Positions 4,274-59,687 of a stretch of DNA of 64,000 bases are shown here, piece after piece. Each line of letters starts with the position of its first letter. Position 1 is the stretch's first letter. The translations under genes and the position numbers were made by a program. A model generated the notes under the pieces. That model saw nothing but the letters and a program-made list of their open reading frames with translations, did no database searches and had not been told where the DNA came from. Source of the DNA: a virus; the IMG/VR virus record IMGVR_UViG_3300021476_000423, positions 32,001-96,000 of that record. The stretch is one strand, 5' to 3'.

Positions 4274-4471
4274 CTAGGAGCCTATTCCATAATTAAGTCT
4301 TATCCAATGGCCTTGTTTTTGCTGAGTGTGCTCTGCTGAACGTCTTTTTATCACCTTGTAAGTCGGCTCATTTTCATCCTTCCAATCACAACTCTGACAG
4401 TAAGCGGAATAGGTATGGCGAGAATCGAGCATGATGGCTTTGTCGAGTTGTTCTTCGTTGGCGTAATTCAT
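4274..4471 (-). CDS. LANQ-motif small protein with C2H2-like finger
   Basis: Starts MNYANEEQLDKA; contains CQSC...H...H; ATGA overlap with the upstream ORF. Confidence 0.7.
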   Translation of the reverse strand: MNYANEEQLDKAIMLDSRHTYSAYCQSCDWKDENEPTYKVIKRRSAEHTQQKQGHWIRLNYGIGS

Positions 4472-4776
4472 GTTTCCACCTTATCCAAATGCACAATGCG
4501 ATTGTGTTTTCCATCTGTTTCGTCATTCACCATACACTTTTCGCAAATGAAAGAATCGCATCCATAACACCAAACGAAATTAGTAACTATCTCACCACAA
4601 TTGAAACAGGGGCCGATGAACTCTGGTATGAATTCCTCTCTGGATAGGTCGTCGGGAAGACCCAAATCGGCTCTCTCTTGGTCGGTAAGGGAAGCACCAT
4701 CAATCGGAACTCTCAGCAGACCATTTCCCTTCTTGAAGAAGGTCTTATTGAGTTCCCCTTGGTTAGCCAATTGCAT
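4468..4776 (-). CDS. LANQ-motif small protein with Cys-rich finger
   Basis: Starts MQLANQGELNK; contains CFNC, CYGC and CEKC. Confidence 0.7.
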   Translation of the reverse strand: MQLANQGELNKTFFKKGNGLLRVPIDGASLTDQERADLGLPDDLSREEFIPEFIGPCFNCGEIVTNFVWCYGCDSFICEKCMVNDETDGKHNRIVHLDKVET

Positions 4777-4958
4777 TATCTATCAGCATCCATCAATTGG
4801 TCGAAGTTGGCTAAAAGCATTCCGTATTCATGATGTGAGGCTTCAATAGTGGCACAAGGGTCACATAGGGCTTGCTCAGGATGCTGAATCGGTTCGCATC
4901 CACAGAGACATTGTAACAGGTCTTCAGGAAAGTTTTGACCGCAACGACTACACCGCAT
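4776..4958 (-). CDS. Small Cys-rich protein with a C-terminal LANQ-like segment
   Basis: CSRC, CLCGC and CDPC; ends MLLANFDQLMDADR; coupled to its neighbours. Confidence 0.5.
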   Translation of the reverse strand: MRCSRCGQNFPEDLLQCLCGCEPIQHPEQALCDPCATIEASHHEYGMLLANFDQLMDADR

Positions 4959-6234
4959 TTGGATGCTCCCTTATTTTGGCGATGTCTGTATTGAGATAGA
5001 TTTCGAAGATATTTTTTGGTGGCGAAAAGTGATGTTCTCTACCCTCTGTGGCTATGTGTTTGGCTATGATGGGCATGGCCCTTGCTTTATCTTGCCAAAC
5101 TTTTGTTTCAAAGTAAAGACGTTGAGCAGGTGTGACCATTCTTTCGTCTTTGATTGCGGTTTCTTTAAAGATGGAACTCATAAGTTCATCCCAAGAATGC
5201 TGAAGTGCTCTCAGAATGCGGTCTTCGGGCATAGGAGGAAAGGTGGCTTTCTCTAGTATGTTCCGTGGGATTGGTGGCAAGTCGGGTAAGTCTATCTTCT
5301 CTTTGAAGCCGATGAGTCTACCGTTCTTGTAGACCTTCCCCACCACACCCTCTCTCTTGTGCCGCTTGGCCCACGTTTTCCATTCCTCAATCTTAGGTGA
5401 CAGGTCTTCCATCTTCCAAGGTGTGAAAGTCTCAGTGGCTTCTACAAGAGACAACTTGTAGTGGTAGGCCATCTGATAGACTAGAGTGTAGGGCAGATAA
5501 GACTTGGCATCTATATCGTAGATGTCAAAGAGATACCAATGAGCATACTTGTGGGCTGGCTCAATGCGAGTCGGCCCCTTACCCTTGTTGACCAACTCAC
5601 CATAGAGAACGAGATTCTTGCCAAAATTCATCCATTCTGACCGAAGCAATTCTAAGGCATTTGGATACTCTGGTGTATTTGAGACTCGATAAATCATCTT
5701 GGGGTCAGCATTGACCATATTGTGACTAGACACATGAATCATCTTCTTTTCTGGCTCAACTTTCACATTCTCTTCAAGCCACAATGAGACGTTTTCGCCA
5801 TCTCGCTTGGGAAAGACGTAGACTATCTCGCCTAGTAACTCTCGTCCTTCCTCTTCAAGCCGCTTGACACACTCTAACTCTATGTAGCGTTGCCACGGAT
5901 ACTTTTGCCCAAGAGCATCACGCATCTCGACAAATCGCATGGTCTCTTCGTCTACCACTTCTTTGACAATAGTAGGCAGTTTTAGTAGTTCTTCGTCAAA
6001 AGATTGGTAGATAACCTTGTAGAGAGAATCACTTCGGTAGGAGATGTCAGGGTCTTCAACTTTTTCTACCTTTTCCAATATTCTTGCGATTCGATGAGTC
6101 GGCACAATCTCTGCAATCTTTTCAAATTCCTTCAGAGGCAAATCAATAAGTTCTTTGTAATCTCTATATTGGATTCTATAGTTACCTTCTGTAAATCTTG
6201 CTTTAGCATAGGCTTCCTCTAATTTTCCTTTCAA
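4948..6234 (-). CDS. ATP-dependent RNA ligase-like nucleotidyltransferase
   Basis: Motif I KRDGEN, III VLYGEL, IIIa YLFDI, IV REGVVGK, V FKEK; no obvious OB domain. Confidence 0.75.
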   Translation of the reverse strand: MKGKLEEAYAKARFTEGNYRIQYRDYKELIDLPLKEFEKIAEIVPTHRIARILEKVEKVEDPDISYRSDSLYKVIYQSFDEELLKLPTIVKEVVDEETMRFVEMRDALGQKYPWQRYIELECVKRLEEEGRELLGEIVYVFPKRDGENVSLWLEENVKVEPEKKMIHVSSHNMVNADPKMIYRVSNTPEYPNALELLRSEWMNFGKNLVLYGELVNKGKGPTRIEPAHKYAHWYLFDIYDIDAKSYLPYTLVYQMAYHYKLSLVEATETFTPWKMEDLSPKIEEWKTWAKRHKREGVVGKVYKNGRLIGFKEKIDLPDLPPIPRNILEKATFPPMPEDRILRALQHSWDELMSSIFKETAIKDERMVTPAQRLYFETKVWQDKARAMPIIAKHIATEGREHHFSPPKNIFEIYLNTDIAKIREHPNAV

Positions 6235-6518
6235 GGACTACATCCTGTCGCAGATTGCAGGATAATTGCATCGCCAAAGTTCTGCTCGTAGACACTATAG
6301 CAACCACCTATTTGAACGACTGGAAGAGAATAAGGTGAGTCTACGACATACCCATGCTTGAAGTAGAGTTTGCTTCCGTCTGCGTTTACCCCTATTAGCG
6401 TATCTTTGAACTTAAAGGTGGTTTGATTGACATAAGAGAAGGAGATACCAAGTCCCAATAATATCAGGACTATAATTCCAACAATTACGATTTTATCCGC
6501 ATTTTCTCTGATTTTCAT
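6231..6518 (-). CDS. Membrane-anchored small protein
   Basis: N-terminal hydrophobic helix; overlapping start/stop junctions on both sides. Confidence 0.55.
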   Translation of the reverse strand: MKIRENADKIVIVGIIVLILLGLGISFSYVNQTTFKFKDTLIGVNADGSKLYFKHGYVVDSPYSLPVVQIGGCYSVYEQNFGDAIILQSATGCSP

Positions 6519-7264
6519 GGGTAATCCACTTGCTCCACTAGGTCGCGGTCATGGTAGATAAGGATTTTGTTCCCTAACAGAGCATAATGTTGGTCTTGGG
6601 GTGACGAATCAACCCTAACAAACCTAGTGGCTCCATGCACTTCTCCCACCTTGAAGGGGCCAGACAAATGGCCAGAGAACCAGATGCGGGGTCGGACTAT
6701 TCCCACCACATCGGTTAGCACTTGAAACTCTTCAGTGGGATGGAATCTCGTTTCATCGGACATAGGAATACTGGCATGAGTGCAAAGCACATCTATCGGC
6801 CCTTTTTGGGCTAGAGTGTTAGCGGCGGCAAGGTATTCTTCTGGTAGAAGTCTAGGAACCCAAGTGATGTCAGTAGTATGCCCTTTGTAGGTCTCTTTGT
6901 AATTCATTCTACGTCTTCTTTCTTTCACATCACCCATGATGCCATTGATGAAACCGAACTTCCAACTCTGTATCATCCGTGTCTCGCCATCTCTAGCCCA
7001 TACTTTACTCCTATCCAGATTCCGAAGCCCCTTCATCATCTGCACATTGTCATGGTTGCCGAAGATGGCGTGAACTTTAACCACTTGAAGTAGGTTCTCC
7101 CATTCCTCTTCATCCCAAGCATACCCCGTATCGCCGCAAAGCACCAAGTCACTTGGTCTATGAAAGTCAACCATCTGAAGCATCCACTTGAGAGCATCCC
7201 CTTCCCACACTCGACCATGAAAATCCTTCTCGTAATGGATGTCAGACATGACCATGATGCTCAT
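6515..7264 (-). CDS. Calcineurin-like metallophosphoesterase
   Basis: SDIH, CGD, GNHD, THA and SGH motifs. Confidence 0.85.
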   Translation of the reverse strand: MSIMVMSDIHYEKDFHGRVWEGDALKWMLQMVDFHRPSDLVLCGDTGYAWDEEEWENLLQVVKVHAIFGNHDNVQMMKGLRNLDRSKVWARDGETRMIQSWKFGFINGIMGDVKERRRRMNYKETYKGHTTDITWVPRLLPEEYLAAANTLAQKGPIDVLCTHASIPMSDETRFHPTEEFQVLTDVVGIVRPRIWFSGHLSGPFKVGEVHGATRFVRVDSSPQDQHYALLGNKILIYHDRDLVEQVDYP

Positions 7265-7488
7265 ATTCCTATGCTCCCAAACATTTGTCTGTGAACCTCT
7301 GCTCTAACTCTTTTCATACCTTCGAGTGTGAGGTCTGCTTCATAAGTAATTTGGCCGTTTTCCCAATGTGCATCAATTATTTTTCCGATAATGTTACCCA
7401 ACTCATCTTTGAGAGGAACGCCCACCATACCATAGCAATTGGCCTTATTCAGTTGTTCTTGGTTGGCCAACCGAAGTTGCTGACTCAT
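7261..7488 (-). CDS. LANQ-motif small protein (likely start 7488, not 7623)
   Basis: MSQQLRLANQEQLNKA; ATGA overlap with the stop of the upstream membrane ORF. Confidence 0.65.
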   Translation of the reverse strand: MSQQLRLANQEQLNKANCYGMVGVPLKDELGNIIGKIIDAHWENGQITYEADLTLEGMKRVRAEVHRQMFGSIGI

Positions 7489-7646
7489 AGTTCTTTCCCT
7501 ATCACAGAGAAAACAATAGCACCTATGAAACACAGACCGCTTACGATTATGTCTGGTGTGTTGTTGCGAATCAAACCTATCGTCAAAGAGACAAAACCAA
7601 GGACTCCTACAATGAAACCGCACAACATAATAAGTTTGTCGGTCAT
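7485..7646 (-). CDS. Small two-TM membrane protein
   Basis: MTDKLIMLCGFIVGVLGF..., two hydrophobic helices, ATGA coupling. Confidence 0.55.
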   Translation of the reverse strand: MTDKLIMLCGFIVGVLGFVSLTIGLIRNNTPDIIVSGLCFIGAIVFSVIGKEL

Positions 7647-8694: not shown

Positions 8695-9183
8695 TTATCT
8701 CCTCCTTCGGTGGTATTTAGCCGTTCTGTCCTTTGCATTCATATATCGTTCATAGGCTTCTCGACTTAACCTATCGGCCTTCTCATTCTCCTCTCTAGGA
8801 ATCCACTGGAACTTAAGGTTCTTGAAATTGAACTTGAGTTTGGCGGCTTCGAAATAGTAGGGTAGATAGGCACCTTGATTGGTTCCCCATTCTCCATTCA
8901 ACTGTTTAGCCACCACTTGATTGTCAGTGTAGAAGATAATCTCTCTGTCAGTTAGGGAACGGCCAACCAATATTCTAAGAGCATCTGCCACGCCAGCATA
9001 CTCGGCCACCACAGAAGTCATACCCTCTCCTTCACCAATCACACCATGCGCCGAGTAGATTTCGGTGCGGTCATCCTTTCCTATGACCACCTCAATGATA
9101 ACTCCATAGGTTGCCACCCCGTTGGGATTAGAAGGTTCGCATAAACCATCAGTATGGACTTCTATCATGATAGAACAATCCAA
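8695..9183 (-). CDS. rnhA: Ribonuclease HI
   Basis: HTDG...NP, AEYAG, YTDNQVV and WIPREENEKADRLS catalytic pattern. Confidence 0.9.
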   Translation of the reverse strand: MDCSIMIEVHTDGLCEPSNPNGVATYGVIIEVVIGKDDRTEIYSAHGVIGEGEGMTSVVAEYAGVADALRILVGRSLTDREIIFYTDNQVVAKQLNGEWGTNQGAYLPYYFEAAKLKFNFKNLKFQWIPREENEKADRLSREAYERYMNAKDRTAKYHRRRR

Positions 9184-18570: not shown

Positions 18571-19993
18571 GGGCGTATCTAATCGATTTGAGGTTGATGG
18601 CCTTCAGTTGTTCAACATAGACTTTGGCTTGCTCTAGGATGTCCTGTGTCACCACTTCCAGCATATCACTCATGCCACTTATCTCTATGCCAGCCAACCT
18701 TGGAAGATTGTCAACAACTGCCATGTTGATAGCCCCACCCCTTGTGTGAGGGTAGGAATGGGCATAGTGAGCCAGAAGAAATGACCTAACTTCTATGATT
18801 TCGCATGGCTCAATCTCGTCATAGAGACTCCTCTCGTAGAGAGGTTGTCGAGTGAACTCTTTGATGGTCGGCTGATTCCAAAACTTCTGCAAAGTCACTG
18901 TCGCTCTCTCTTCCATCGCCCTATAGGTCTCAATCAGATTCTTTCTCTCAACATCGTCCAACCCCTCTGACCCTGCCTTGTCCTTTACTGGCGTATAGTC
19001 ATTGTATGCGATAATCCCAAATCTGCGTCCCATCGCATATGAGTTCCTGCATAGGTGGGCAAGAATATCTCGCATCACCGATGTATGACTTCCCGATAAT
19101 GCCAATGGATTGGCTGTCGCTATGAATGGGCAAGCCGCAACTATGCGTATGGTTGCGCCCCCTGCTCCTGACAATGACCATCCCTGCTCCAACAATGTCA
19201 TAAGAAGTCCTGCCACGTTCTCTACTGCCAGACTCTCTATCTGCTCTATGGTGAGCGCATAGTGCTGATTGTCAAACAACCCTCTTGCTATGTCGTCTGT
19301 CCACTTGGCCGTTCCAATCAATGTGTTCTTTGTCGTCTTGTCATACCTTGACCCTACGATGTCATAGAACGAAGTTTTGCCAGTGTTAGGTGGCGTTATG
19401 ATGAGAGTATGGGGCTGATATTTCATCACATAGCCATAGGGAATAGCCGCCTTATAGACCGTCTTCAGATTATCATCTGTCTCTCCCTTGTAGGAGATGA
19501 TGTTAGTCACCAAGTCCAACCAGTCTTGAGTTGGCTTCATTGTCCCATAATCGAGATACTTGTTTAGTAGTTGCTCATCAAAGTGGAAAGAGGTCTCAAA
19601 GGTATAGGTAGACAAATCATCCCACTCTTCTATGCGGGGGTCTCTCTCCTGCCCAACCTTCTTGAGAATGTATAGCCTCTCATCTCTATCGAAGATTCCA
19701 TCCAGACGAGAAGGCAAAACTCTGGCCAACGGTAATGAGGTCTTCTTGCTATGGATAACATTCTTGGTGTCTAGAATGTAGGCTGGCGGCGTGGTTGTGG
19801 ATACCATTCCCCTATACAACTTAGCCCCCAAGTTGGCCACAACACCCTCTGGCGTATCATCAAAATCCACTCTCTGATACATCGGCTCAATCATCTCAAA
19901 AACATTGAGCGCCTTGCCCATTTTGGCGTTATTTCCGTTATGACCGTTATTATCTTGGCCCGACAAATTCAACACCCATTGGATTCTGCTCAA
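18554..19993 (-). CDS. MCM-like AAA+ helicase (divergent)
   Basis: Walker A PPNTGKTS, atypical Walker B TIEQIE, sensor-1 IATANP and Arg finger RRF; lies between primase and PolB. Confidence 0.7.
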   Translation of the reverse strand: MSRIQWVLNLSGQDNNGHNGNNAKMGKALNVFEMIEPMYQRVDFDDTPEGVVANLGAKLYRGMVSTTTPPAYILDTKNVIHSKKTSLPLARVLPSRLDGIFDRDERLYILKKVGQERDPRIEEWDDLSTYTFETSFHFDEQLLNKYLDYGTMKPTQDWLDLVTNIISYKGETDDNLKTVYKAAIPYGYVMKYQPHTLIITPPNTGKTSFYDIVGSRYDKTTKNTLIGTAKWTDDIARGLFDNQHYALTIEQIESLAVENVAGLLMTLLEQGWSLSGAGGATIRIVAACPFIATANPLALSGSHTSVMRDILAHLCRNSYAMGRRFGIIAYNDYTPVKDKAGSEGLDDVERKNLIETYRAMEERATVTLQKFWNQPTIKEFTRQPLYERSLYDEIEPCEIIEVRSFLLAHYAHSYPHTRGGAINMAVVDNLPRLAGIEISGMSDMLEVVTQDILEQAKVYVEQLKAINLKSIRYALDQSN

Positions 19994-20198
19994 ATTTCGC
20001 TAAGTTACCTTGATTGACCTGATGCGTATGAGTTCCCTTCACATCAGCATAACACAACGGACATTGACCGTTAATCATCTGAATGAACAAAGTGCTACCC
20101 TTCCACTGATGTTTGATGTATTTCAACTTTCTTTCTAGCCGCCTCATTGCTTCTTGGTCGTGAGCAAAGTTGAGTTTGTCTTGATTGGCGATTTTCAT
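19950..20198 (-). CDS. LANQ-motif small protein
   Basis: MKIANQDKLNFA; CPLC...HTH. Confidence 0.65.
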   Translation of the reverse strand: MKIANQDKLNFAHDQEAMRRLERKLKYIKHQWKGSTLFIQMINGQCPLCYADVKGTHTHQVNQGNLAKFEQNPMGVEFVGPR

Positions 20199-20407
20199 GT
20201 GAATTCACTTTCATCGGTTGTAACGATAGAAATTCCATCAAACGATAAGGCTTGACCTTTTAGTTCGAAAAGCCAATTGAGCCAAAGTCGTGTTGTTTCA
20301 TTTATGATAAGAGAATGATAAGGTGCATTGAACTCTTGCCACTGCTTAACGACTTCATCCCAATCAATTTGAGCATTGTCCAACTGCTGTTGGTTGGCGA
20401 ATTCCAT
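20195..20407 (-). CDS. LANQ-motif small protein
   Basis: MEFANQQQLDNA; TAATG coupling to the PolB stop. Confidence 0.65.
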   Translation of the reverse strand: MEFANQQQLDNAQIDWDEVVKQWQEFNAPYHSLIINETTRLWLNWLFELKGQALSFDGISIVTTDESEFT

Positions 20408-22539
20408 TATGCCAACACCGTTTGGCTTGCTGGCATAATCTTCTCCTTCTTGTATTTGCTAACCTCTTCAATTACACCAAGTCTCCACATGAGGGGGTCT
20501 AACTGATGAGATACATACCAAGAGTAGTCAATCTCGCCCTGTTGAACCAGATTGATGAGTTTAGGTATTGCGCCCCTAGTCATATAGTATTGCACCACAC
20601 CATACTCTACCATATCGGTGGGAACCCATCCTGTCTTCATGGCTTCTTTGAGCGCCTTAACGTGCTGTGGCGTTCCTATCCGCCGCATCTTCCCGTCCTT
20701 TCCCTTCCTCATGCCCCCATATTCATCCACATCCTTCCCCATGTGTTTCTCCATGACAAGTAGAGGGTCGTAGACTCCTGAGAAGAGTTTGTCCTTGGTG
20801 TCTTCATAGAAAGCCATGATTTGTTCCTTGGGGGTCTTGGTCACTAGGAACCGCTTTATGGCATCCTGTGTCATCCTTGCCAATTCGCACCAATCGCCCC
20901 GCAAACCTTCCATACCTGCTTCTTCAAATTTATCCACAACCTCTCCCGTTTTGTCAATGTGGACAATTCCAAAGTAACGCTTTTTGGCCTTCTCACCTTT
21001 GGCCGACTTGGGGAAAGTTATGAGTGACCAGAAGTTCTCCCTCCCGTAGACGATGTTATCCACATTGTAGGTCTTCCGAACATACTCATTGATGAGGTCA
21101 CGAATGGTGTCGGCCTCATCCATCGTTCCCACTACAAAGCAGGAATCTGTGTCCAGATAGAGAACCGTATAGCCCAATGAGGTAAGAAATTCCTTAACGT
21201 GAGTCTCAATATCCCTGCCGTGGAAAGTCACACTATCTGCTACTTCGACAGATTTGAAACGATAGTAAGATGAGGCAAAGATGCCATAGAGAGCATTGAC
21301 CGCAATCTTGTAAGCCCATTTCTCTATCTTATCTTTGGCGTTCCGTTTTCCATAGAGAAGTTCCATGACGATTGGCTCAATCAACTTGAACTTACCCAAT
21401 GGGGCCAACTTCCATGCCAATAGAATATTGGGGTATAGTGAATCAACATCATACTGTAAGACGTTCTCGAAGGTTCCCATGCGAAGGATGTCCACCAGAC
21501 CGCCCGGATATTTGGGCCTAGTCTTGTAAGCCGTTTTACAGGGTAAAACCCACCCTATTTGGTGAGCATACTTGAGAAAATACTGGTCTAATACTGGTGT
21601 AATAGTAATCATCTGTTTGAGGGGATGGACTCCAAAGATTTGGTCAGGAAAGACATGGCCCTGTTTGGCTAACTGTGTCATCACACGACTATACTCCTGT
21701 TTCTCATCTATCTTACCAGTGAACTCAGCATCCCATAGCACTCTCTCCTGAAGTTGTTCGTCTGGTAGTGTGCTAAGTCGAGTATTGACAAAAGGTTTCC
21801 TCTCATCGAAAAGTCGTCTTGCCACCTTACCAAGTGCCCACTGACTTCTGAAATTCTTGCTCATGAATCTGTAGGCCAATGAAATGTCTGCAAACCGAGT
21901 TTGAGAGAAGTCGAACTTGACCTTATTGTAGGCTAGTCGCTTGGCAAAATAGGGAACGTCCCACTCTTTGCTATTCCAACCCTTCATGAGAGCAATCTTG
22001 TTCTCGGTGATAAAGTCGGTTGCCCCTTGTAGAACCTTGGCTTCCGAACTCTCTGTTCCCTGTTGAGTGATAGGATTGTATGTCCACGCATATCTTTGGC
22101 CTTTGTAAACTATACCAATGGCTGTGATTGGTTCGTTAGCGAGTTCAGGATTGGGCCTTCCACTGCTATCATCTTCCTCTGTATCCCAAGAGGCTTGATT
22201 CGGATAGTCGTCGCAAGTCAAGTTCTCGTCTAACATCCACACTCCAACATACTTTTTGTCGGCTTCATAGACGCTGATGGACTTGCTCTCAGCATAGTTA
22301 CGAAAGTTCTTTACCTGCCCCGGAACATTGAACAGATACTTTTTGGTTGATTCCTCAGTATCGAAGGTGCGAAGGTCTACCCTCTCGAATTTGGCGGCAG
22401 TATTGAGTTCTCGGTTGGCCGGAATGTAGCAGTAGGGTGGAATAGGGTCATTGATGATTTCCATTTCGCCATTTCGCCAAACCTTCATTTTGACCCTGTT
22501 ACCATCAATGATGTAATTGGCACTGTCGAAAGGAATCAT
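20407..22539 (-). CDS. polB: Family B DNA polymerase (RNA-primed type; likely start 22539)
   Basis: ExoI WDTE, ExoII WNSKEWD; polymerase motifs DVDSLYP, KIAVNALYG, YLDTDS, KKRY. Confidence 0.95.
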   Translation of the reverse strand: MIPFDSANYIIDGNRVKMKVWRNGEMEIINDPIPPYCYIPANRELNTAAKFERVDLRTFDTEESTKKYLFNVPGQVKNFRNYAESKSISVYEADKKYVGVWMLDENLTCDDYPNQASWDTEEDDSSGRPNPELANEPITAIGIVYKGQRYAWTYNPITQQGTESSEAKVLQGATDFITENKIALMKGWNSKEWDVPYFAKRLAYNKVKFDFSQTRFADISLAYRFMSKNFRSQWALGKVARRLFDERKPFVNTRLSTLPDEQLQERVLWDAEFTGKIDEKQEYSRVMTQLAKQGHVFPDQIFGVHPLKQMITITPVLDQYFLKYAHQIGWVLPCKTAYKTRPKYPGGLVDILRMGTFENVLQYDVDSLYPNILLAWKLAPLGKFKLIEPIVMELLYGKRNAKDKIEKWAYKIAVNALYGIFASSYYRFKSVEVADSVTFHGRDIETHVKEFLTSLGYTVLYLDTDSCFVVGTMDEADTIRDLINEYVRKTYNVDNIVYGRENFWSLITFPKSAKGEKAKKRYFGIVHIDKTGEVVDKFEEAGMEGLRGDWCELARMTQDAIKRFLVTKTPKEQIMAFYEDTKDKLFSGVYDPLLVMEKHMGKDVDEYGGMRKGKDGKMRRIGTPQHVKALKEAMKTGWVPTDMVEYGVVQYYMTRGAIPKLINLVQQGEIDYSWYVSHQLDPLMWRLGVIEEVSKYKKEKIMPASQTVLA

Positions 22540-22673
22540 ATTTGAACTATACACCCACAATCAAGACCCAATTGAAGAGGAAATCCAAGCCAATAACTCA
22601 TTAGCATCCGATACCCATGTTCTGGACACTTGATAAGATTCCATCCTAATTTGTCTTGATTTGCTAACTTCAT
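22536..22673 (-). CDS. LANQ-motif 45-aa Zn-finger protein (not in track)
   Basis: MKLANQDKLGWNLIKCPEHGYRMLMSYWLGFPLQLGLDCGCIVQI; ATGA overlaps on both ends. Confidence 0.65.
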   Translation of the reverse strand: MKLANQDKLGWNLIKCPEHGYRMLMSYWLGFPLQLGLDCGCIVQI

Positions 22674-22855
22674 AGTTCCCACCTACAGTTGCAGGACAGA
22701 TACAGCGTAATTCTGATGCAACCACAATCTTCATTCACCCAAGTAACCTGCAAAACGTCTTTAGTGCCATGTGTTGGACAAACTGCTTTGAAGCCACCAA
22801 CTTCTTTGGAGTTGCTTGCCTCATCTAGTTCGATTTGATTCGCAAGGTCAGACAT
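22670..22855 (-). CDS. LANQ-motif Zn-finger protein
   Basis: MSDLANQIELDEA; CPTHG...DCGC...CNC. Confidence 0.65.
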   Translation of the reverse strand: MSDLANQIELDEASNSKEVGGFKAVCPTHGTKDVLQVTWVNEDCGCIRITLYLSCNCRWEL

Positions 22856-23285
22856 CTTGAATCACCATTCTAATGATTTCGTAGAGGTCGGGGTCTGACT
22901 GCTCTAAAGTCTCCAAACGTGGCGGCATCAATCCAGCCACTCTAGCGTGGTCAACCATCTGAGGAATGGACTCTAGGACTTTGGTGCATGGGGCCAACTC
23001 GTGACATTGCTCAAAGTAATCTTGACAATACTTGATAGCATCGTCAGGCGAGACCTTGAGAACGGAGATGAAGTAGGGGGCTATCACAAGCCACAATAGT
23101 CGCATCCTGCCGTCTCTGACGGGGTGCATCAACAGTTTAGGAATGTAAGCATAACTCGTAGGGTCTCCGCCCGGAAGACTTGGCGAATGCTCCTGCTCTG
23201 ACCTCTTGAATTGCGCCATAAAGGTCTCAACATTGTATTGAGCCTTCGTTTTGTCGTCCATTGACAAAGAATCGGAAGAGGCCAT
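22848..23285 (-). CDS. PriX-like primase accessory subunit
   Basis: LLMHPVRDGRMRLLWLVIAPYF resembles the DGRxR signature of PriX/primase C-terminal domains; located in the replication operon. Confidence 0.55.
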   Translation of the reverse strand: MASSDSLSMDDKTKAQYNVETFMAQFKRSEQEHSPSLPGGDPTSYAYIPKLLMHPVRDGRMRLLWLVIAPYFISVLKVSPDDAIKYCQDYFEQCHELAPCTKVLESIPQMVDHARVAGLMPPRLETLEQSDPDLYEIIRMVIQDV

Positions 23286-37827: not shown

Positions 37828-38074
37828 CTATCTTCTCTTCTGTAACGTCTTTCAACTTCGCCAAAGCCATCAAATAGTGTCCAAATTCGTGTTTTATCTT
37901 CTCTTCGGTGGCTTTGTTTGTAATGCCGATATGCCAATCGGGATGGTCTGAGAAGTAGACTCCTACGCCGGGTGCTCTTACTGCCTTTGGCACTAGAATG
38001 ACTTGGATTGGTGGCACACCCCATTCATGTGCCAAGTCATCGACTATCTTCTGAGCCACTTTACGGGATAACAT
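37808..38074 (-). CDS. Small HExxH metallopeptidase-like protein
   Basis: KHEFGH motif; last gene of the Lon operon. Confidence 0.5.
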   Translation of the reverse strand: MLSRKVAQKIVDDLAHEWGVPPIQVILVPKAVRAPGVGVYFSDHPDWHIGITNKATEEKIKHEFGHYLMALAKLKDVTEEKIVTQLMS

Positions 38075-38825
38075 TAGGATAGGTCACTTCAAAAGCCGAG
38101 ACAACGAAATATGGAGTGGTCAGACCATAATCGATAAAATCTCGTGCAAACTGACTCGTTCCTGTAAGGTCTATGTAATGGTATCCTGCTGTCATATTTA
38201 TGGCTATGTAGGGAATGACTGCTCCAACTGTAGTAAGTTGAGCATCATTGTCAAGAGGATGCCAATTGTAAACCAAGTAGACTTTGCTATCTATTGTGAT
38301 GGTAAGATTGACACCTTCCAACATTGAATGACCCGATATTAGAAAGTAAACGGTTCCTGCTTGTGTAAGAGAGAAAGTGTTGAAATATCCGGTGTCTGCC
38401 TCTTGAAAAGGCAGAACTTGGGTTATTGTGGATTCGGTTTGGGCCGTGGCTTGAACGGCTATATTGACTGACCATTCTTGAGCATTATTGAGAGTCATCC
38501 ATTGGAGAGTGTCGGTAGCGGTATAAGGCAAATTGATGATATCATTGAAAGTATTTGGTAGACTTCCATCTCTATGAAGCGGAGTTATGACTCTAGCCAC
38601 TTCGATATTGCCATCCATAACAGAGATGATTCTATCGTAGGCATCGTAAGTGGAGTGTCCACTGATATCTACGAGAGTTCCCTTAGATGTGTTAGGAAGA
38701 ATGGTTACAATATGAGAGTTGCCAGACAGAATAGGGACTGAAGGAGCAATCAATAACATAGCCAAATAGAGTGTCAGCAAAACCAACGGAATTTTGAGTT
38801 TGATAGGTAATTTGGACAATCTCAT
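38061..38825 (-). CDS. Membrane-anchored extracellular beta-rich protein
   Basis: N-terminal TM/signal segment and beta-rich remainder. Confidence 0.55.
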   Translation of the reverse strand: MRLSKLPIKLKIPLVLLTLYLAMLLIAPSVPILSGNSHIVTILPNTSKGTLVDISGHSTYDAYDRIISVMDGNIEVARVITPLHRDGSLPNTFNDIINLPYTATDTLQWMTLNNAQEWSVNIAVQATAQTESTITQVLPFQEADTGYFNTFSLTQAGTVYFLISGHSMLEGVNLTITIDSKVYLVYNWHPLDNDAQLTTVGAVIPYIAINMTAGYHYIDLTGTSQFARDFIDYGLTTPYFVVSAFEVTYPNVIP

Positions 38826-41197
38826 TTCTTCTTCACCTTATTCCATATCTCATCTTCTTCCGAGTCTCCCCGAACCTGTTCCCAATAAGAGAGCACCGTA
38901 TCTGAAGATACGACTTTGATACCCTCAAACTGGTCATTTGAGATAATCTTACCATCGTAATTCTCTTTGGGTATCAGAACATATTTAAGTCCATATCTCT
39001 TGGCTCCCCGAATCTTCTCATACACACCACCGATAGCCGAAATCTTGATGTCACCTGCCCTCTCTTCCTTCAATTCCATCGCTCCTGTCATGGCTATGTC
39101 CTGTCTCAATGGGACTGGTATCAACTCGAACTCGGACTTGAGTTTACCAGAGGCTAAATGGGCTTTCCAGCGTTTCTTGAACTCTCTTGGGTCTCCTAAC
39201 CACGACATAAGAGAGACAGTCATAGTGATGCCAGCACTTGGCCCATCTACCTTAGTCTGAGAGAACTTGATGTGAACATAGCAATCCTTCCCTATGTCTA
39301 CGCCGTATATCCTAAGTATGGCTGTTCTGACTTCGCGTTTCGAGTCCTGCACATCGGTTTCATCGCCTCTCACCACACCTGTAACCTCAAAATTGGCATA
39401 GTCGTGAGAATCTACGAATCTGAGGAAAGACTGCACCTGCATTACATCGCCAGCCCCTTCGCCGCCGTGGGGAGCCGCCACTACTGCCAATCCGTTGACC
39501 TGACCTACTTTGGTTCCAACATTCTCTACTAGCGAAATGGCTTCCTTCTTCTCCAATCGATGTTCGATAACCTGCTTCTCGATGGTTTCAGTGTAATGTT
39601 CGATAGCATCTTTCACATGACTGTCTCGAACTATAACATCACCATCCTTCCACGAGAGTTGTGATGACCTCTTGAGCACTTTGATGACGGCTCTGAACAT
39701 CAATTTGATGTGGTCTTTGTCGCTGGCTCTTTGTTTCACATATTCAAGTATGCGCTTTACACCTGCCGCTTCCATAGGTGGAAAGCCGAACCTGTAAAGT
39801 TCGTCCCTTACGACCTGTGCCACAAGCATCTCATTGAGAGGCGTGGCTTCTACCTCATCCTTCAGTGCGATGATGTCACCATAGTTCTCAAACCTGTCTC
39901 TAAGAGCAGGGAATTGATTGATAATGCTATGTGGGTCGTCCAATACATCCAAATTGCCAGCCGCAAAGAGAAAGAACATGGCCTTGACAGGTGGTGTTTG
40001 AATGTTCTGTCCTGCCGTTCCGCCACCGCCGCTAGTGGAAGTATTATCGGCTTGCTGTTGGATAGGAAACTCCCCATCTTCCATTGCAGTCAGAAGTTTG
40101 ATGGCTGATGATTGAGAGAGATTGCGAATCTCATCTATGTAGAGAATCTTCTTGTTGGCTTCATGAATCTTCCCTGCTTGAACTCTACGGTAAGGTGGTT
40201 TGGCCATTGCACCAGTTTGCCACGGAGACCACTCTATCGAGCCAAAGAGGGCGGCATCCGAAACCAGAGTGCAGTTGACATACATTTGAGTTGACTCAGG
40301 GTCATTATCCACAAGTAGATTGGGAATGTGTTTTTGTTCGTTACCCTGTTGTCCGAACATCCAACGCTGTTGCCAGAACATAATCATGATGAACATAGGA
40401 AAGCCTATCATGGTCATTCCCAAACCAAAGTAAACGCTGGCCGAATTCAACAGAGCAGACTCAAAATCCATGCCACCAAGCATATTCAATAACATCTTTC
40501 TAAGACCTAATGAAATCAACATAACCCCAATAAAGATGATAGTCCCAATGCCACCATAGAGCAAAGCGTTTTTCTTACGTCCTTTCTGTGTTTCCTTTAT
40601 TTCGGCATACTCAACTACCTTTTTGGCGGTTCCTGCTGGCTTGATATATCTCACATTGGCCTTGTAGCGATTGATGCGGTCTTCGCCAAGCATAACGTCT
40701 TCAAGTTCGATGCCCTCTTCCTTGTATTTGTCCTTCAGCGATTCGGCCATAACTTTGATAATGAGAGACTTACCAGTGCCGGGTTCACCCAACATAAGAA
40801 TGTTGTTAGTTGGTCTTTCACGCAAAACTGCCGAAAGTTTGACTCCGGCGGCTTCTTTCTTTTCCATCTCCTGAAGTTGTTTCAGAGTGCGAATCCATTC
40901 TATCTCACTAAGGTCAATCTTCTTGAGGGCGGCATCCTGACCGATAATCCAGTCCTTGAACTTCTCTGGCACACGAATGTCATCAGTAGTGTGCTTGGCT
41001 TTGGAGTCGAAGAATTTATCGGTGAAAGCCTTGGGGTCGCTACGCCATTTATCATCTCGAAGGTCGAACTCTGGCTTCAATATCTCCATGTCTCTCTGAA
41101 TCTTTTCCGTTGAAACTTTGATTTCACCAAAGTCATGGTCTTCCTTACCTTCTCTCAGTCGTCTCTTCACTCGTCTAAAGACGCTTGGGATTCTCAT
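38822..41197 (-). CDS. lonB: Archaeal-type membrane Lon protease (LonB)
   Basis: IIGQD, Walker A GEPGTGKS, two TM helices inserted in the AAA+ domain, Walker B YIDEI, GQVNGLAV, catalytic DGPSAG and GGVYEK. Confidence 0.9.
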   Translation of the reverse strand: MRIPSVFRRVKRRLREGKEDHDFGEIKVSTEKIQRDMEILKPEFDLRDDKWRSDPKAFTDKFFDSKAKHTTDDIRVPEKFKDWIIGQDAALKKIDLSEIEWIRTLKQLQEMEKKEAAGVKLSAVLRERPTNNILMLGEPGTGKSLIIKVMAESLKDKYKEEGIELEDVMLGEDRINRYKANVRYIKPAGTAKKVVEYAEIKETQKGRKKNALLYGGIGTIIFIGVMLISLGLRKMLLNMLGGMDFESALLNSASVYFGLGMTMIGFPMFIMIMFWQQRWMFGQQGNEQKHIPNLLVDNDPESTQMYVNCTLVSDAALFGSIEWSPWQTGAMAKPPYRRVQAGKIHEANKKILYIDEIRNLSQSSAIKLLTAMEDGEFPIQQQADNTSTSGGGGTAGQNIQTPPVKAMFFLFAAGNLDVLDDPHSIINQFPALRDRFENYGDIIALKDEVEATPLNEMLVAQVVRDELYRFGFPPMEAAGVKRILEYVKQRASDKDHIKLMFRAVIKVLKRSSQLSWKDGDVIVRDSHVKDAIEHYTETIEKQVIEHRLEKKEAISLVENVGTKVGQVNGLAVVAAPHGGEGAGDVMQVQSFLRFVDSHDYANFEVTGVVRGDETDVQDSKREVRTAILRIYGVDIGKDCYVHIKFSQTKVDGPSAGITMTVSLMSWLGDPREFKKRWKAHLASGKLKSEFELIPVPLRQDIAMTGAMELKEERAGDIKISAIGGVYEKIRGAKRYGLKYVLIPKENYDGKIISNDQFEGIKVVSSDTVLSYWEQVRGDSEEDEIWNKVKKK

Positions 41198-42135
41198 TTG
41201 TTGGCCACCTTTGACCTATTACGGTCATCCAAAAACAACACTCTTGGCTGTTGTGCTTCAACCTTTCTAAGTAGGGATTCCAAATGAGGCGAAGCAATCA
41301 ATCTTCGTCTGTCATTGATATATTTCTTGAACCACCCTTCGAAAACATAGATTAGAACGGCCCCCAAACTTGCTACCCATAACTCCCAATAGGTGAAATA
41401 GAGACCACCCACTTCGGCGGCAAGAAGATAGAGATTGAGGAGGAAGACGACCGGACTGATGGGTTTGTAGATTTGTCCAACTGGTGTTTTCCAAATATTG
41501 GTATCTACTTCATCAATTTGTGATGGAAGTGCCGAAAAATAGGTATAATGGAGCATAAGTCCTGATGCTCTATCCCATTCAAGCATGGTTCCGGTAAGTG
41601 AATTTTGATAGGTATAGGTGTTTCTGAACGCCAAATCGATGACATCGCCACCGAAAGCCGCCACAAAAATTCCAAAGCCTCCCTGAGTGATAGCAACTCT
41701 TTCATCCAGATTCACAAAATCATTGGTTTGAAGATAAGGACTGATGACTGGAAGTCGCATGAAAAATTGATATTTGGGAATGGAGAAATCTGTCTTTGGA
41801 ACCATTGAGATTGTTTGATTACCTATAGCCATTGTGATAACCTTGTTATCATCACCTGCGCCTTTTACTGTGATGAGTTGAAGGTAACTGTGCTGAGAAT
41901 GGTCAAACAAAGTGAGCGTCACATTGAATAGAATCAAAGTAGGCGAAATAGTTTGCACTACTTCTACACGAAAGGAATTGATGAAAGGATGATAGGTCAC
42001 ACTGTAATCAACGTAGGCTCCGGGCGTGAGTAGAGGCGAAATCTGATAATCTTCGACAAATGAAGCGTGGCTTACTGGCGCAAAGGAGAGGAGCATCATC
42101 AAAATGAATGCTAAAGCAAGCCCCTTTCGTTTCAT
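41194..42135 (-). CDS. Secreted/membrane protein
   Basis: Signal peptide ending SHA and C-terminal TM helices; first gene of the Lon operon. Confidence 0.6.
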   Translation of the reverse strand: MKRKGLALAFILMMLLSFAPVSHASFVEDYQISPLLTPGAYVDYSVTYHPFINSFRVEVVQTISPTLILFNVTLTLFDHSQHSYLQLITVKGAGDDNKVITMAIGNQTISMVPKTDFSIPKYQFFMRLPVISPYLQTNDFVNLDERVAITQGGFGIFVAAFGGDVIDLAFRNTYTYQNSLTGTMLEWDRASGLMLHYTYFSALPSQIDEVDTNIWKTPVGQIYKPISPVVFLLNLYLLAAEVGGLYFTYWELWVASLGAVLIYVFEGWFKKYINDRRRLIASPHLESLLRKVEAQQPRVLFLDDRNRSKVANK

Positions 42136-52376: not shown

Positions 52377-52421
52377 TCTAGGATAGAAAGGCTGTTCCGA
52401 CTATTTAAGGCTTGGCCGCTT

Positions 52422-53927: not shown

Positions 53928-53969
53928 ACTGGTTTAGATATGCCTCTTGGAGTATTTAAAGACTACCGA

Positions 53970-54443: not shown

Positions 54444-54480
54444 ACAATCCTTTATAAGCGACTGCGACTACTTAAACTCT

Positions 54481-58300: not shown

Positions 58301-58355
58301 AGAAAAGGGAAATCCTCTTGCGAAGTCACCAATGGTTTTTCGTCATGTAGGATAG
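55320..58355 (+). CDS. Large mosaic (polyvalent) protein: Vsr/DUF559-like nuclease, Zn ribbons and HDxxGH metallo-domain
   Basis: DEWQI..YL..LG...YDIYLP..LIAIE..GWH...DKYK; several CxxC; FRGIHDLFGH...GEFAAF..H...ARGAMATET. Confidence 0.6.
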   Translation: MATVEVEAYQLTPAEYQAITDHAWAGETCPACQGLLQSIQQDKEGNTFIYPNSDQAQHMSDLFGYSAAPYGATTGYLDPEDPSWQRSVEHIAERQKGGELGTFGPQSGMVRGEPTRDEWQITSYLDSLGVKYVHKMKLGEIDPTETAKPKVEYDIYLPQYLIAIETSPGWHIGGKSQQSFPQVIENDKYKSNFAQEHGIDLVAFDPSEGTESFINNELVPRLLSVGVKAYQVPKSEVISQHEWNEPMGGAPAYQEQDDYWSRQKAPYHCSDPGCGRLLEWCEDCDSHHHAGPSWMQEHIELQKAMKTPYFEEEESEMMLACPHCGWEGRSDEAQESIGKRGRLEYQCPQCGQKDRAMRMGQLYYDLHPEELGKVKEPKPHDPTDYSWYMAPYEMPQSEPEPEPQPQTQMEPDISSRTVMSPYQEASLNQGQNLPLFPSRGKVNTVNQGGEGKALEFPNHLFHEENKGYRIEGYSSSEVTDAKKVIEYEVKELGNIHVLIEALQAFGLEIPLESDEDVEAGLNILFDAIDRKFGPDAQAIWLVDTAEGAKERYGFTADGETLGEPSEYDVPSDAVVISNLGPEEGKLYLMKSEEDHFNSGFAQVGEVGDFFLHKSNATQGRGQESPMQTNYGYQEELPSCPDCGNSEVYYDNQTEKYRCPDCGWHGIPRRKAYGYSEPIKQEESNLLTKLADAYNAENGFKPIDESVKSKKLDEKVGEQVAETFDAAEHDPADPKVKAAYEALKEESLAQWQFAKANGYKLEESKEDPYDNYKEMMEDLTENHTLKVYSEGNPLPKDHPLAEESPEGVTYNVIFRGIHDLFGHAAHDNTFDNFEGEFAAFLCHMQMFSEEARGAMATETLAQTEWQEYIGGVGNYPDQKAIFTEIPSELISTAKKEEEQDTLERDLESEISSFAQLYSFSTPEGNPIPQNTDDLLEAIGTWGYIVGEIPVEEAKGGDLIDTFGGYTTVPPMVIIYKDGRVELPKREEYPTTDQRSEKGNPLAKSPMVFRHVG

Positions 58356-58689
58356 CAAGAACCTTTTTCAATAGAGTAACGTGCCAACATTTGCCTTTGC
58401 CCTTTGCCGCAGAATTGAACCAACCATCACACTCACAAGCGGCGATGTCATCAATCTTATTGTAGAAGACGTTGTATTTGCGCCAAGGAAAGCGTTTACT
58501 AGAGATTCTGGCAAACACTAAGTCACCATCTTGAAGAATATCGACTTCAGGATGGTTTGGGTCTTTCTGTGATTGGGATGCCAAGGACTTTCTTCCTCTT
58601 ATCGGCCTCTTCCTTTGTTTCGTAGGGCAGGATTGTGCCAAGGTCGTAAGGCGCTTGGTCATCAAACGGGCCGACAGTTTGGGGAGCAT
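58282..58689 (-). CDS. SWIM Zn-finger protein (start uncertain)
   Basis: ACECDGW...KCWH. Confidence 0.55.
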   Translation of the reverse strand: MLPKLSARLMTKRLTTLAQSCPTKQRKRPIRGRKSLASQSQKDPNHPEVDILQDGDLVFARISSKRFPWRKYNVFYNKIDDIAACECDGWFNSAAKGKGKCWHVTLLKKVLAILHDEKPLVTSQEDFPFLTSGQS

Positions 58690-58827
58690 TCCCGGCGATA
58701 GGCGCTACACCACCAAGGTCTTTCACGCCGCTATCCACGATGATGCACTCCTGTCCCATGTGCCGCAGAAGGTCATCTTCTGTCTTGATTTCGACTTTGT
58801 GCGTTATACAGGCTTTTCCGGTCATAC

Positions 58828-59496
58828 CTATTTGACCTCATCAGCCCCTAATAAAGATTCATCGGGAACCACAGTCTCAAAGGACTCAAGTGGTGGGATA
58901 ATGACCGTATTGGGGTTTTCCTTGGGTCTCAGATAAGACCACACTAGAACGTAGAAGACTGTAGCAATGGCCTTAGTCCCAACATTATTGGCCGGAATAC
59001 ACAAGTCCACCCCCTCAAGAGTGGCATCGGTATTGCAGATGGCAATGACAGGAATGCCCTGACTGGCCGCTTCATCCATTGCTCTGCGCTCAAATTTGAG
59101 GGGTTCCCCTATCTTAGTGGGCACTCCACAAGTAGGGTCAGCAACAAGCAAAACGTCACACTCCTGATAGTATTTCATCAGAGGATTACTCAGAGTTCCG
59201 GCATACATCCTACCCTGAAGAGTGGTAACTTTTGTTGCCATATGGAAGGATTTTATTCCATTCTCGAATCGTTTGTCGGTTGCGTAGACAACAGGACTTT
59301 GGCTCTTTCTCATGAACTTGCCAGCCACATCAAGTCTATCCAACACCAACTTGGGGTCTAGGATGGGATTGCCAGCCAAAGAGATTTCCTTGACAAAGGG
59401 TTTCATGTCTTTACTTACCTGTCCCTTTTTACCGAAGAGAATGCCAGTGGCTTCGAACACAGCCTCAGTAAGTGAGGCAGGTAATTCGAATGTCAT
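58828..59496 (-). CDS. rps2: Ribosomal protein uS2 homolog (archaeal type, divergent)
   Basis: DMKPFV, DRLDVAGKF, GRMYAGTLSNP, DVLLVADP, EAASQGIPVIAICNTD, VDLCIPANN.GTKAIA align with conserved archaeal/eukaryotic uS2 blocks. Confidence 0.88.
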   Translation of the reverse strand: MTFELPASLTEAVFEATGILFGKKGQVSKDMKPFVKEISLAGNPILDPKLVLDRLDVAGKFMRKSQSPVVYATDKRFENGIKSFHMATKVTTLQGRMYAGTLSNPLMKYYQECDVLLVADPTCGVPTKIGEPLKFERRAMDEAASQGIPVIAICNTDATLEGVDLCIPANNVGTKAIATVFYVLVWSYLRPKENPNTVIIPPLESFETVVPDESLLGADEVK

Positions 59497-59687
59497 CTGA
59501 CGATTCTCACCACTTTCTTAGGATTAGGATTCGGAATGACGATTTCAATAACGTGCCCTGTATCGTTGATAATGTGATAGTCGTAAATGATGATTTCATC
59601 ATTAGGTGGCATAATTCTCCTAATGTCATTTCCGCTTGGTGGAACAGCAGTTGCAACCTTGAGTTTATCGTTATTGGCTAACTTCAC
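59493..59687 (-). CDS. LANQ-motif small protein
   Basis: GTG start, MKLANNDKLKVA; ATGA-coupled to uS2. Confidence 0.6.
   Translation of the reverse strand: MKLANNDKLKVATAVPPSGNDIRRIMPPNDEIIIYDYHIINDTGHVIEIVIPNPNPKKVVRIVR

What the first reader, a model, noticed from the sequence alone, without database searches (positions are those of the whole stretch)
4274..59687. Family of small proteins with a shared N-terminal LANQ peptide and variable C-termini: candidate modular adaptor or targeting system
Seen: at least 8 small ORFs begin with the same motif, [LIFY]-A-N-[QEN]-x-[QEK]-L-[DN]-x-A. They are 4471 MNYANEEQLDKA, 4776 MQLANQGELNKT, 7488 MSQQLRLANQEQLNKA, 20198 MKIANQDKLNFA, 20407 MEFANQQQLDNA, 22673 MKLANQDKLGW (not in the ORF track), 22855 MSDLANQIELDEA and 59687 MKLANNDKLKVA. 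A further copy, MLLANFDQLMDA, lies at 4820. Codons vary synonymously (GCC/GCT/GCA/GCG, AAC/AAT), so conservation is at peptide level. The downstream parts are mostly unrelated, and five carry different Cys/His fingers. The ORFs sit singly or in pairs, with overlapping junctions, beside ligase, phosphoesterase, MCM, PolB, PriX, DHH and uS2. Inference: a constant docking helix plus a variable effector domain, analogous in logic to F-box adaptors or packaging/export tags. Possible hubs are the viral LonB, a replisome component or a host complex. I know of no described family like this.
Basis: partly seen in the sequence, partly recalled or inferred. Interest (0 to 1): 0.88.

Follow-up and report, generated by a model that had tools for sequence, protein, structure and literature searches.

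The report
Shared address tag on archaeal-virus proteins
A 107-kb uncultured tailed virus of archaea and its relatives start about 8% of their genes, all small and otherwise unrelated, with the same 12-residue peptide. The peptide is kept by selection and most likely works as a common docking or address label, but what reads it is still unknown.

Summary
The peptide M-x-[LIFY]-A-N-Q-x-[EKQ]-L-x-x-A-[RK] heads 8 ORFs plus one 14-codon stub in the window and about 16 ORFs in the whole 106,907-bp genome. The strict motif gives 12 six-frame hits against 0.25 expected, and all 12 lie at ORF starts.

Conservation is at the peptide level. All Ala, Asn and Leu codons are used at the invariant positions, and there is no conserved flanking DNA. 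The bodies fall into 23 unrelated groups. One body, a cross-brace Zn finger, has 144 tag-less relatives elsewhere, so the tag is an add-on module.

The tag is kept in three of five PolB lineages of this virus group. It was not seen in the other two, in 15 other viruses that encode a C1 protease, in the rest of IMG/VR, or as clusters in cellular genomes.

The proposed hub, the viral LonB, does not: only this genome has it.

The function is unproven. I favour a short docking helix read by one shared receptor. The main candidate roles are hub docking in the replication phase, capsid loading as in phage T4, and a protease-read leader. The scan has noted similar terminal tags in other archaeal viruses.

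The parts
4274..4471 (-). Tagged ORF, 65 aa, MNYANEEQLDKA..., with a C2H2-like Cys/His body. Its start overlaps the stop of the next ORF.
   Evidence: 13.3 bits against the tag HMM
4468..4776 (-). Tagged ORF, 102 aa, MQLANQGELNKT..., followed by a variable linker and a cross-brace (B-box-like) Zn finger.
   Evidence: Orthologues in G002, G003 and P0007 keep the tag; distant relatives of the body lack it.
4776..4820 (-). A 14-codon tag stub (MLLANFDQLMDADR*) that forms the C-terminal end of Zn-ribbon ORF 4776-4958. It abuts the start of the next tagged gene and is probably the remnant of a deleted tagged gene.
   Evidence: 8.0 bits
7261..7488 (-). Tagged ORF, 75 aa, MSQQLRLANQEQLNKA... The tag is displaced by 4 residues. 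The ORF lies beside the metallophosphoesterase gene.
19950..20198 (-). Tagged ORF, 82 aa, MKIANQDKLNFA..., with a CPLC...HTH finger. It is the second gene downstream of PolB.
   Evidence: Orthologues P0002, P0003 and P0006 are 67-72% identical, and dN/dS is 0.08.
20195..20407 (-). Tagged ORF, 70 aa, MEFANQQQLDNA..., acidic (pI 4.05). It lies directly downstream of PolB.
   Evidence: orthologue in G003 keeps the tag
22536..22673 (-). Tagged ORF, 45 aa, MKLANQDKLGW... It overlaps the PolB start by 25 nt and has a GGTGGG Shine-Dalgarno-like sequence upstream.
   Evidence: 12.7 bits
22670..22855 (-). Tagged ORF, 61 aa, MSDLANQIELDEA..., Cys-rich. It sits between PriX and the 45-aa ORF.
   Evidence: 15.1 bits
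59493..59687 (-). Tagged ORF, 64 aa, GTG start, (M)KLANNDKLKVA... It lies between the uS2 gene and a 407-aa gene.
20407..22560 (-). Family-B DNA polymerase. The slots on both sides hold tagged ORFs in G000; the upstream slot also holds them in G002, G003 and L293.
22848..23285 (-). PriX-like primase subunit. It marks the upstream edge of the PriX-PolB insertion slot.
   Evidence: PF18689, 3.8e-14
62672..63526 (-). Papain-family (C1) cysteine protease with catalytic Cys, His and Asn motifs intact. It is the only enzyme whose presence tracks the tag within this virus group, and the link is weak.
38822..41197 (-). It is specific to G000, so it is not the common receptor.

Best explanation
The LANQ peptide is a short linear docking motif. 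It is an N-terminal helix that starts at the invariant Asn5 (helix cap) and presents L3/A4, L9, A12 and R/K13. A flexible linker joins it to many unrelated small accessory proteins, about half of them zinc fingers.

Shown:
- The peptide is under purifying selection as a peptide.
- It is an add-on to bodies that exist elsewhere without it.
- The tagged genes are real genes (dN/dS 0.08-0.25).
- They turn over fast in fixed slots, above all around PriX and PolB.
- The tag has been kept across three deep lineages of the virus group.

Inferred:
- One trans-acting receptor, conserved in those lineages, reads the tag. This gives a changing set of proteins the same destination or partner. I put this umbrella reading at about 0.6.
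- Among destinations I narrowly favour docking to a hub of the replication/early phase, host or viral (about 0.3). The reason is that in every tag-bearing lineage the tagged ORFs are interleaved with PriX, PolB and the RadA-like ATPase gene, with abutting or overlapping (probably translationally coupled) reading frames.
- The receptor is not the viral LonB.
For: - Enrichment and strict N-terminal position.
- Synonymous codon variation and no conserved DNA.
- It is the only N-terminal cluster shared between genes in G000, G002 and G003; G001 has none.
- The bodies form 23 unrelated groups.
- Indels in the linker between orthologues.
- AF2 model: helix 6-15, linker pLDDT below 50, body pLDDT 80-92.
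- Only 5 of 149 representative homologues of the Zn-finger body carry the tag.
- dN/dS 0.08-0.25.
- The tag is kept in G002/G003 and, in relaxed form (N5, L9 and A12 kept; position 4 A/S/E/V), in the L293 lineage, whose PolB is 62% identical.
- The PriX-PolB slot holds 2 tagged ORFs in G000, at least 3 in G002, 1 in G003, 3 in L293 and none in the tag-less lineages.
- Small N-terminal extensions of 1-4 residues are tolerated, so the peptide itself is read rather than the free N-terminus.
Against: - No receptor has been identified and no binding test was possible.
- Many tagged genes lie away from the replication genes: a five-gene array at genome 5.7-7.5 kb, others beside the RNA ligase and beside uS2.
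- The motif lacks the aromatic pair of PIP boxes, and Q6 is variable.
- The virus encodes no clamp.
- Whole lineages with the same replication and head genes do without the tag (G001).
- The phyletic data rest on one complete tag-less genome.
Confidence: 0.55

Rival explanations
1. Capsid-targeting tag, as in phage T4. The peptide loads the small proteins into the procapsid through the scaffold or shell interior. They are then co-injected with the DNA as a swappable set of early effectors or anti-defence proteins, and the prohead protease may trim the tag.
For: [quoted passage not shown]
- The genetics look the same here: a hypervariable, lineage-specific set of small proteins in hot spots.
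- The virus has an HK97-type head module: MCP, a coiled-coil scaffold p177 and a candidate prohead protease p418.
- About half the tags end in L-x-x-A-[RK] followed by Gly/Ser/Pro-rich linkers, which could be a cleavage site.
Against: - The scaffold, MCP and protease contain no tag-like sequence.
- The T4 cleavage motif L/I-x-E is absent.
- The tagged genes sit in operons with replication genes, not head genes.
- G001 shares the head module (MCP 85%, scaffold 60%, protease 59% identical) but has no tagged genes.
- The tagged proteins are mildly acidic rather than DNA-condensing.
Confidence: 0.2
2. Cleavable leader or degron. A protease reads the tag, either to activate the small proteins or to remove them at a set time. 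The candidate is the virus's own papain-family C1 protease, with L9 or L3 in the hydrophobic P2 position. The logic matches the shared N-terminal motif that the cysteine protease Prp cleaves on unrelated staphylococcal phage proteins.
For: - The C1 protease is present in G000, G002 and G003 (63-65% identical).
- A 55%-identical homologue lies on a 48,418-bp contig, which is the length of the L293 contig.
- In the complete tag-less genome G001 the syntenic slot holds a Nal1-like serine protease instead.
- The catalytic Cys, His and Asn motifs are intact.
- Precedent: Prp cleaves a conserved N-terminal sequence shared by L27 and by non-homologous capsid, scaffold and tail proteins (PMC5744158).
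Against: - The C1 protease family is very large (7602 proteins at E<=1e-40).
- It occurs in at least 80 other viral contigs with no tag in 1.3 Mb of flanks, and in 15 whole records with no tag.
- The co-occurrence therefore rests on a single informative tag-less genome.
- There is no sharp conservation boundary that would mark a cleavage site.
- The viral LonB is excluded as a general reader.
Confidence: 0.12
3. No external receptor. The tag is a self-contained element, for example a helix through which tagged proteins bind one another, or one that aids the folding or stability of very small proteins. It spread because new genes form by recombination behind an existing tagged start.
For: - The 14-codon tag stub directly in front of another tagged gene (4776-4820) shows that genes are cut and joined at or near tags.
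- Slot occupancy changes fast even between close relatives.
- The conserved residues fit a generic helix-start signal: an Asn cap, E at N3 and L at N4 (interpretation from general knowledge of helix capping).
Against: - Neutral hitch-hiking is excluded. Synonymous sites are saturated while the peptide is kept.
- A role inside the molecule is unlikely for 23 unrelated bodies separated from the tag by flexible linkers.
- A 10-residue helix is short for stable self-association.
Confidence: 0.1
4. The conservation reflects a nucleic-acid signal at gene starts (a translation-initiation element, a protein-binding DNA site or a homing target), or it is chance.
For: The tags lie at translation starts, often behind GGTG-type Shine-Dalgarno sequences. 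A LAGLIDADG endonuclease gene is found only in the tag-bearing genomes.
Against: - All synonymous codons are used at the invariant residues, and third positions are not conserved.
- There is no conserved flanking DNA.
- 12 hits were observed against 0.25 expected.
Confidence: 0.02

Closest known systems
Capsid-targeting sequence (CTS) of the phage T4 internal proteins IPI, IPII and IPIII (PMC3012670)
   Same: An N-terminal peptide of about 10 residues is the only feature shared by a diverse, fast-evolving set of small accessory proteins of a tailed virus. The genes sit in variable regions.
   Different: There is no sequence likeness and no L/I-x-E cleavage site. The host is archaeal and the virus unrelated. 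There are about 16 members per genome. The genes are interleaved with replication genes. Packaging has not been shown.
Prp cleavage motif shared by ribosomal protein L27 and non-homologous capsid, scaffold and tail proteins of staphylococcal phages (PMC5744158)
   Same: A conserved N-terminal peptide on unrelated phage proteins is read by one cysteine protease. Here a cysteine protease gene (C1) tracks the tag within the virus group.
   Different: There is no F|A site. The protease here has a papain fold and is virus-encoded, not Prp. The carriers are small accessory proteins, not structural proteins. Cleavage has not been shown.
PIP-box and other short clamp- or hub-binding peptides of replication proteins (my own knowledge)
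   Same: A short terminal helical motif gives many unrelated clients access to one hub. The Q-x-x-L spacing is present in most tags. The genes lie next to PolB and PriX.
   Different: The aromatic pair is absent and Q is not invariant. The invariant residues are A4, N5 and L9. The virus encodes no clamp, and binding could not be tested.
Leader peptides of RiPP and bacteriocin precursors, such as double-glycine leaders and one-maturase-many-precursors systems (my own knowledge)
   Same: A constant N-terminal leader precedes hypervariable C-terminal parts, with many precursors per genome.
   Different: The bodies are folded domains of 45-106 aa, not short cores. There is no Gly-Gly site and no adjacent maturase or exporter. 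The peptide-ligase cluster of this virus is also present in the tag-less genome G001.
Terminal tags noted by this scan in other archaeal and giant viruses (e1-831089, e1-5724776, e1-5344537, e1-5979888)
   Same: The phenomenon is the same: one short terminal peptide on a large share of small, unrelated genes, often near the replication module, with an unknown reader.
   Different: The peptides and virus lineages differ. In e1-5979888 the tag matched the end of the scaffold protein; here no structural protein matches.

Membership tests
T4-type capsid-targeting sequence | A short N-terminal peptide shared by otherwise unrelated small proteins of one virus | tested here: met
T4-type capsid-targeting sequence | The tag ends in the prohead-protease cleavage motif (L/I-x-E in T4) and is removed | tested here: not met
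   No L/I-x-E at the end of the tag. About half the tags end in L-x-x-A-[RK]. Cleavage itself cannot be tested here.
T4-type capsid-targeting sequence | The tagged proteins are present inside virions | not testable with these tools
   Needs virion proteomics.
T4-type capsid-targeting sequence | A prohead protease and a scaffolding core are present in the virus | tested here: inconclusive
   p418 matches a head-protease PHROG only weakly (2.5e-5) and has no protease Pfam hit. p177 is coiled-coil-like.
Prp-type N-terminal cleavage motif | A conserved N-terminal motif with an F|A cleavage site | tested here: not met
   No tag contains FFA or FA.
Prp-type N-terminal cleavage motif | A dedicated cysteine protease co-occurs with the motif | tested here: inconclusive
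   The C1 protease is in all tag-bearing lineages and absent from G001. It is also common in viruses without the tag.
PIP-box clamp-binding peptide | Q-x-x-[LIMV]-x-x-[FYW]-[FYW] | tested here: not met
   Q6 is variable. Positions 12-13 are A-[RK], not aromatic.
RiPP / bacteriocin leader peptide | A short modifiable core, a defined leader cleavage site, and an adjacent maturase or exporter | tested here: not met
   The bodies fold as domains. There is no adjacent enzyme, and the ligase cluster is also in tag-less G001.
Secretion signal peptides (Sec, Tat, class III) | A hydrophobic h-region or a twin-arginine motif | tested here: not met
   The tag is polar (L-A-N-Q-x-E-L) and has no hydrophobic stretch.
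Any curated protein family (Pfam, PHROGs) | A significant profile match shared by the members | tested here: not met
   No family matches more than 3 of the 28 members, and none covers the tag.

The most novel reading that the evidence does not exclude
Tailed viruses of archaea use short terminal peptides as a general address code, and LANQ is one dialect of it. The tag routes an exchangeable repertoire of small effectors to a single receptor. In the boldest form it loads them into the capsid for co-injection, which would be an archaeal-virus counterpart of the T4 capsid-targeting sequence that arose independently and could be used to find and to package effector proteins.
Probability: 0.2. 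Interest if true: 0.75.

Novelty: new variant of a known kind. Interest (0 to 1): 0.55.

Why it matters
If one receptor reads the tag, a 12-residue peptide marks the whole accessory-effector set of a group of uncultured archaeal viruses. That set could then be listed from sequence alone. The receptor could be fished out with a synthetic peptide, and the tag could be used to deliver foreign proteins to the same place. Together with similar tags seen by this scan in other archaeal viruses, it points to a recurring and so far undescribed way of organising small viral proteins. The present case is limited to a narrow group of peat-bog viruses and its function is untested.

Tried and rejected
1. 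Viral LonB as hub: rejected. Lon is present only in G000.
2. Viral PCNA or MCM as hub: none is encoded.
3. Tag mimics a scaffold, MCP or protease terminus: no match above noise.
4. Tag travels with the C1 protease in other viruses: no. No tag was found in 80 loci (1.3 Mb) or in 15 whole records.
5. DNA-level element: rejected by codon use.
6. Paralogy of the bodies: none at BLAST E<0.01 within a genome.
7. Pfam, PHROGs, PDB sequence search, Foldseek and ESM Atlas on members: nothing significant. There are only weak cross-brace Zn-finger likenesses.
8. Degenerate DNA pattern scan of IMG/VR: outside this clade it found only single chance-like hits and an internal lysozyme-like motif, MRLANQGKF.
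It therefore neither identifies a host nor excludes host proteins that carry the tag.
10. First AF2 model with 4 sequences: uninformative (pLDDT 48).
PriX and weak Atlas neighbours hint only at a host in the TACK group of archaea.
No expression data, no extra contig context and no binding prediction could be obtained.


Full report
**What the window is.** The window is bases 32,001-96,000 of a single 106,907-bp virus record. IMG/VR classes the record as a complete provirus. It encodes:
- a family-B DNA polymerase, an RNA ligase and a metallophosphoesterase;
- LonB, a large terminase subunit and a tail tube protein;
- PriX, a ribosomal protein uS2 and an HK97-type head module just outside the window.

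Its terminase is at most 28% identical to any deposited phage. It is therefore an uncultured tailed virus with archaeal-type replication genes. The related contigs carry sample ids in the series that I recognise as peat-bog metagenomes; that is my own knowledge and was not tested.

**Checking the observation.**
- The strict pattern [LIFYVM]AN[QEND].[QEKD]L gives 8 hits in the six frames of the window and 12 in the genome. Residue shuffles give 0.245 on average.
- All 12 hits lie within 7 residues of a start codon. Only 10% of six-frame positions do so under the most liberal definition.
- Counting slightly relaxed copies, the genome holds about 16 members, 7 of them outside the window.
- In an alignment of 28 full-length members from three genomes, only A4, N5 and L9 are invariant. 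L3, Q6, E/K8, A12 and R/K13 are preferred.
- At the invariant positions all four Ala codons, both Asn codons and all six Leu codons are used. The upstream DNA shares nothing but Shine-Dalgarno-like purines.
- Blind all-against-all clustering of every possible N-terminus recovers this peptide as the only N-terminal cluster shared between genes in three genomes.

**Are these real genes?** Orthologous pairs give dN/dS of 0.08-0.25 wherever synonymous sites are not saturated. Several members have orthologues in other contigs that keep the tag.

**Is the tag a module?**
- With the tag removed, 33 members fall into 23 groups with no BLAST similarity between groups. No two members of this genome are related.
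- No Pfam or PHROG family is shared.
- In one orthologue set the tag and the body are conserved, but an 18-residue stretch between them is present or absent.
- With a 61-sequence alignment, AlphaFold2 models that protein as follows: a helix at residues 6-15 that begins right after Asn5, a linker with pLDDT below 50, and a confident cross-brace Zn-finger body with pLDDT 80-92.
- A profile of this protein finds 241 relatives among 1.84 billion representatives. Only the five closest carry a tag-like N-terminus. The other 144 of the 149 listed are small Zn-finger proteins with arbitrary N-termini.

The tag is therefore an appendage added to pre-existing bodies.

**Distribution.**
- Two related viral genomes, G003 (105.7 kb, terminal repeats) and G002 (91 kb), have 7-9 members each.
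- A closer relative, L285, has at least one.
- A deeper lineage, L293/L295 (PolB 62% identical), has four tagged ORFs in a row around PriX and PolB. Their tags are relaxed but keep N5, L9, A12 and R13.
- The complete genome G001 has none, even with relaxed patterns, and neither do the PolB flanks of the other contigs in the two remaining PolB lineages.
- The PolB tree shows five well-supported lineages on an unresolved backbone, three with the tag and two without. With the midpoint root, the tag is ancestral and was lost once or twice.
- A degenerate DNA pattern scan of all IMG/VR contigs finds clustered N-terminal hits only in this clade.
- The same scan of one genome per prokaryote species gives only scattered single hits at about the chance rate.

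**Genomic behaviour.**
- Tagged ORFs abut or overlap their neighbours and sit inside operons of non-structural genes.
- The slot between PriX and PolB holds 2 tagged ORFs in this genome, at least 3 in G002, 1 in G003 and 3 in L293. It holds none in L285 or in the tag-less lineages.
- One tagged gene in that slot is orthologous across G002, G003 and L293.
- At 4776-4820 a 14-codon tag followed by a stop lies directly in front of the next tagged gene. This looks like the stump of a deleted member.

G003 is complete, has the tag and has no Lon.
- The virus has no PCNA or MCM.
- A tag profile finds nothing in the scaffold, capsid or protease proteins.
- Genes present in all tag-bearing genomes but not in G001 are few: a papain-family C1 protease, four proteins of unknown function, a Zn-ribbon protein and a LAGLIDADG endonuclease.
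- The C1 protease also appears to lie on the L293 contig, judged by a matching contig length of 48,418 bp.
- In G001 the same slot holds a Nal1-like serine protease.
- The C1 family is very large, however, and occurs in many viruses without the tag. The four tag-less fragments do not cover that locus.

The link to the C1 protease is a lead and no more.

**Interpretation.** The data support a short docking helix that is read in trans.
- The conserved residues lie on one helical face behind an Asn cap.
- The tag tolerates a few extra residues in front of it.
- A flexible linker separates it from the body.
- Selection has kept it while the bodies come and go.

What reads it is inferred, not shown. 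I narrowly favour a hub of the replication phase because of the constant interleaving with PriX, PolB and the RadA-like gene. The main rivals are:
- capsid loading as in T4, where diverse internal proteins share only a capsid-targeting sequence (PMC3012670);
- a protease-read leader, as with the Prp motif shared by unrelated staphylococcal phage proteins (PMC5744158);
- self-association of the tags.

A nucleic-acid signal and chance are excluded by the codon data.

**Novelty.** The motif has no described family. The kind of thing it is, a shared terminal tag on unrelated viral proteins, is known from T4, and this scan has noted it in several other archaeal viruses. I therefore rate it a new variant of a known kind. 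It is of moderate interest: real, clean and testable, but confined to a narrow lineage and without a demonstrated function.

Noticed in passing
window 38061-42135: LonB (791 aa) and its two flanking genes (254 and 313 aa) form a three-gene block found only in this genome. It is absent from the complete relatives G001 and G003.
   Followed up: partly
window 62672-63526; L026:4139-5194: Non-orthologous protease replacement at one syntenic slot. Tag-bearing genomes have a papain-family C1 cysteine protease there; G001 has a Nal1-like (trypsin-fold) serine protease.
   Followed up: partly
window 4776-4958: A 60-aa Zn-ribbon ORF ends in a 14-codon copy of the tag that abuts the next tagged gene. 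This is probably a scar of recombination or deletion between tagged genes.
   Followed up: partly
L011:8194-9450 (genome 104194-105450): The candidate HK97-type prohead protease (a weak PHROG hit) carries a long acidic C-terminal extension with several Zn ribbons. It lies upstream of a coiled-coil scaffold (177 aa) and the 306-aa capsid protein.
   Followed up: partly
window 58828-59496: A virus-encoded ribosomal protein uS2 (PF00318, 1e-9). It is conserved at 53-56% identity in G001, G002 and G003.
   Followed up: partly
window 61606-62016: A LAGLIDADG homing endonuclease gene is present in the three tag-bearing genomes and not detected in G001.
   Followed up: no
G001 70.4-73.2 kb; G002 84.6-87.0 kb; G003 51.3-52.6 kb: Very long ORFs built of many short repeats with the core T-H-Q-E-x-S-G-x-[IL]-G, probably fibre-like proteins. 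They appeared as false N-terminal clusters.
   Followed up: no
L009:10215-10292: The only tRNA gene found in the virus is tRNA-Lys (CTT).
   Followed up: no
genome 718-1236, 28857-29456 and 101298-101453 (outside the window): Three proteins have LAN[QHK]-like sequences at or near their C-terminus (KVLANHKQLNV, NRLANQGLKV, VKLANKNVKT). They score just above noise and may be chance.
   Followed up: no
L136-L164 (14+ IMG/VR contigs): The DNA pattern also hits an internal, highly conserved MRLANQGKFKEAC segment about 115 residues into a lysozyme-like ORF of unrelated phages. It is not an N-terminal tag.
   Followed up: partly
window 8695-9183: An RNase H-like protein (PF13456 RVT_3, 6e-14) lies among the small genes between the phosphoesterase and the replication block.
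   Followed up: no
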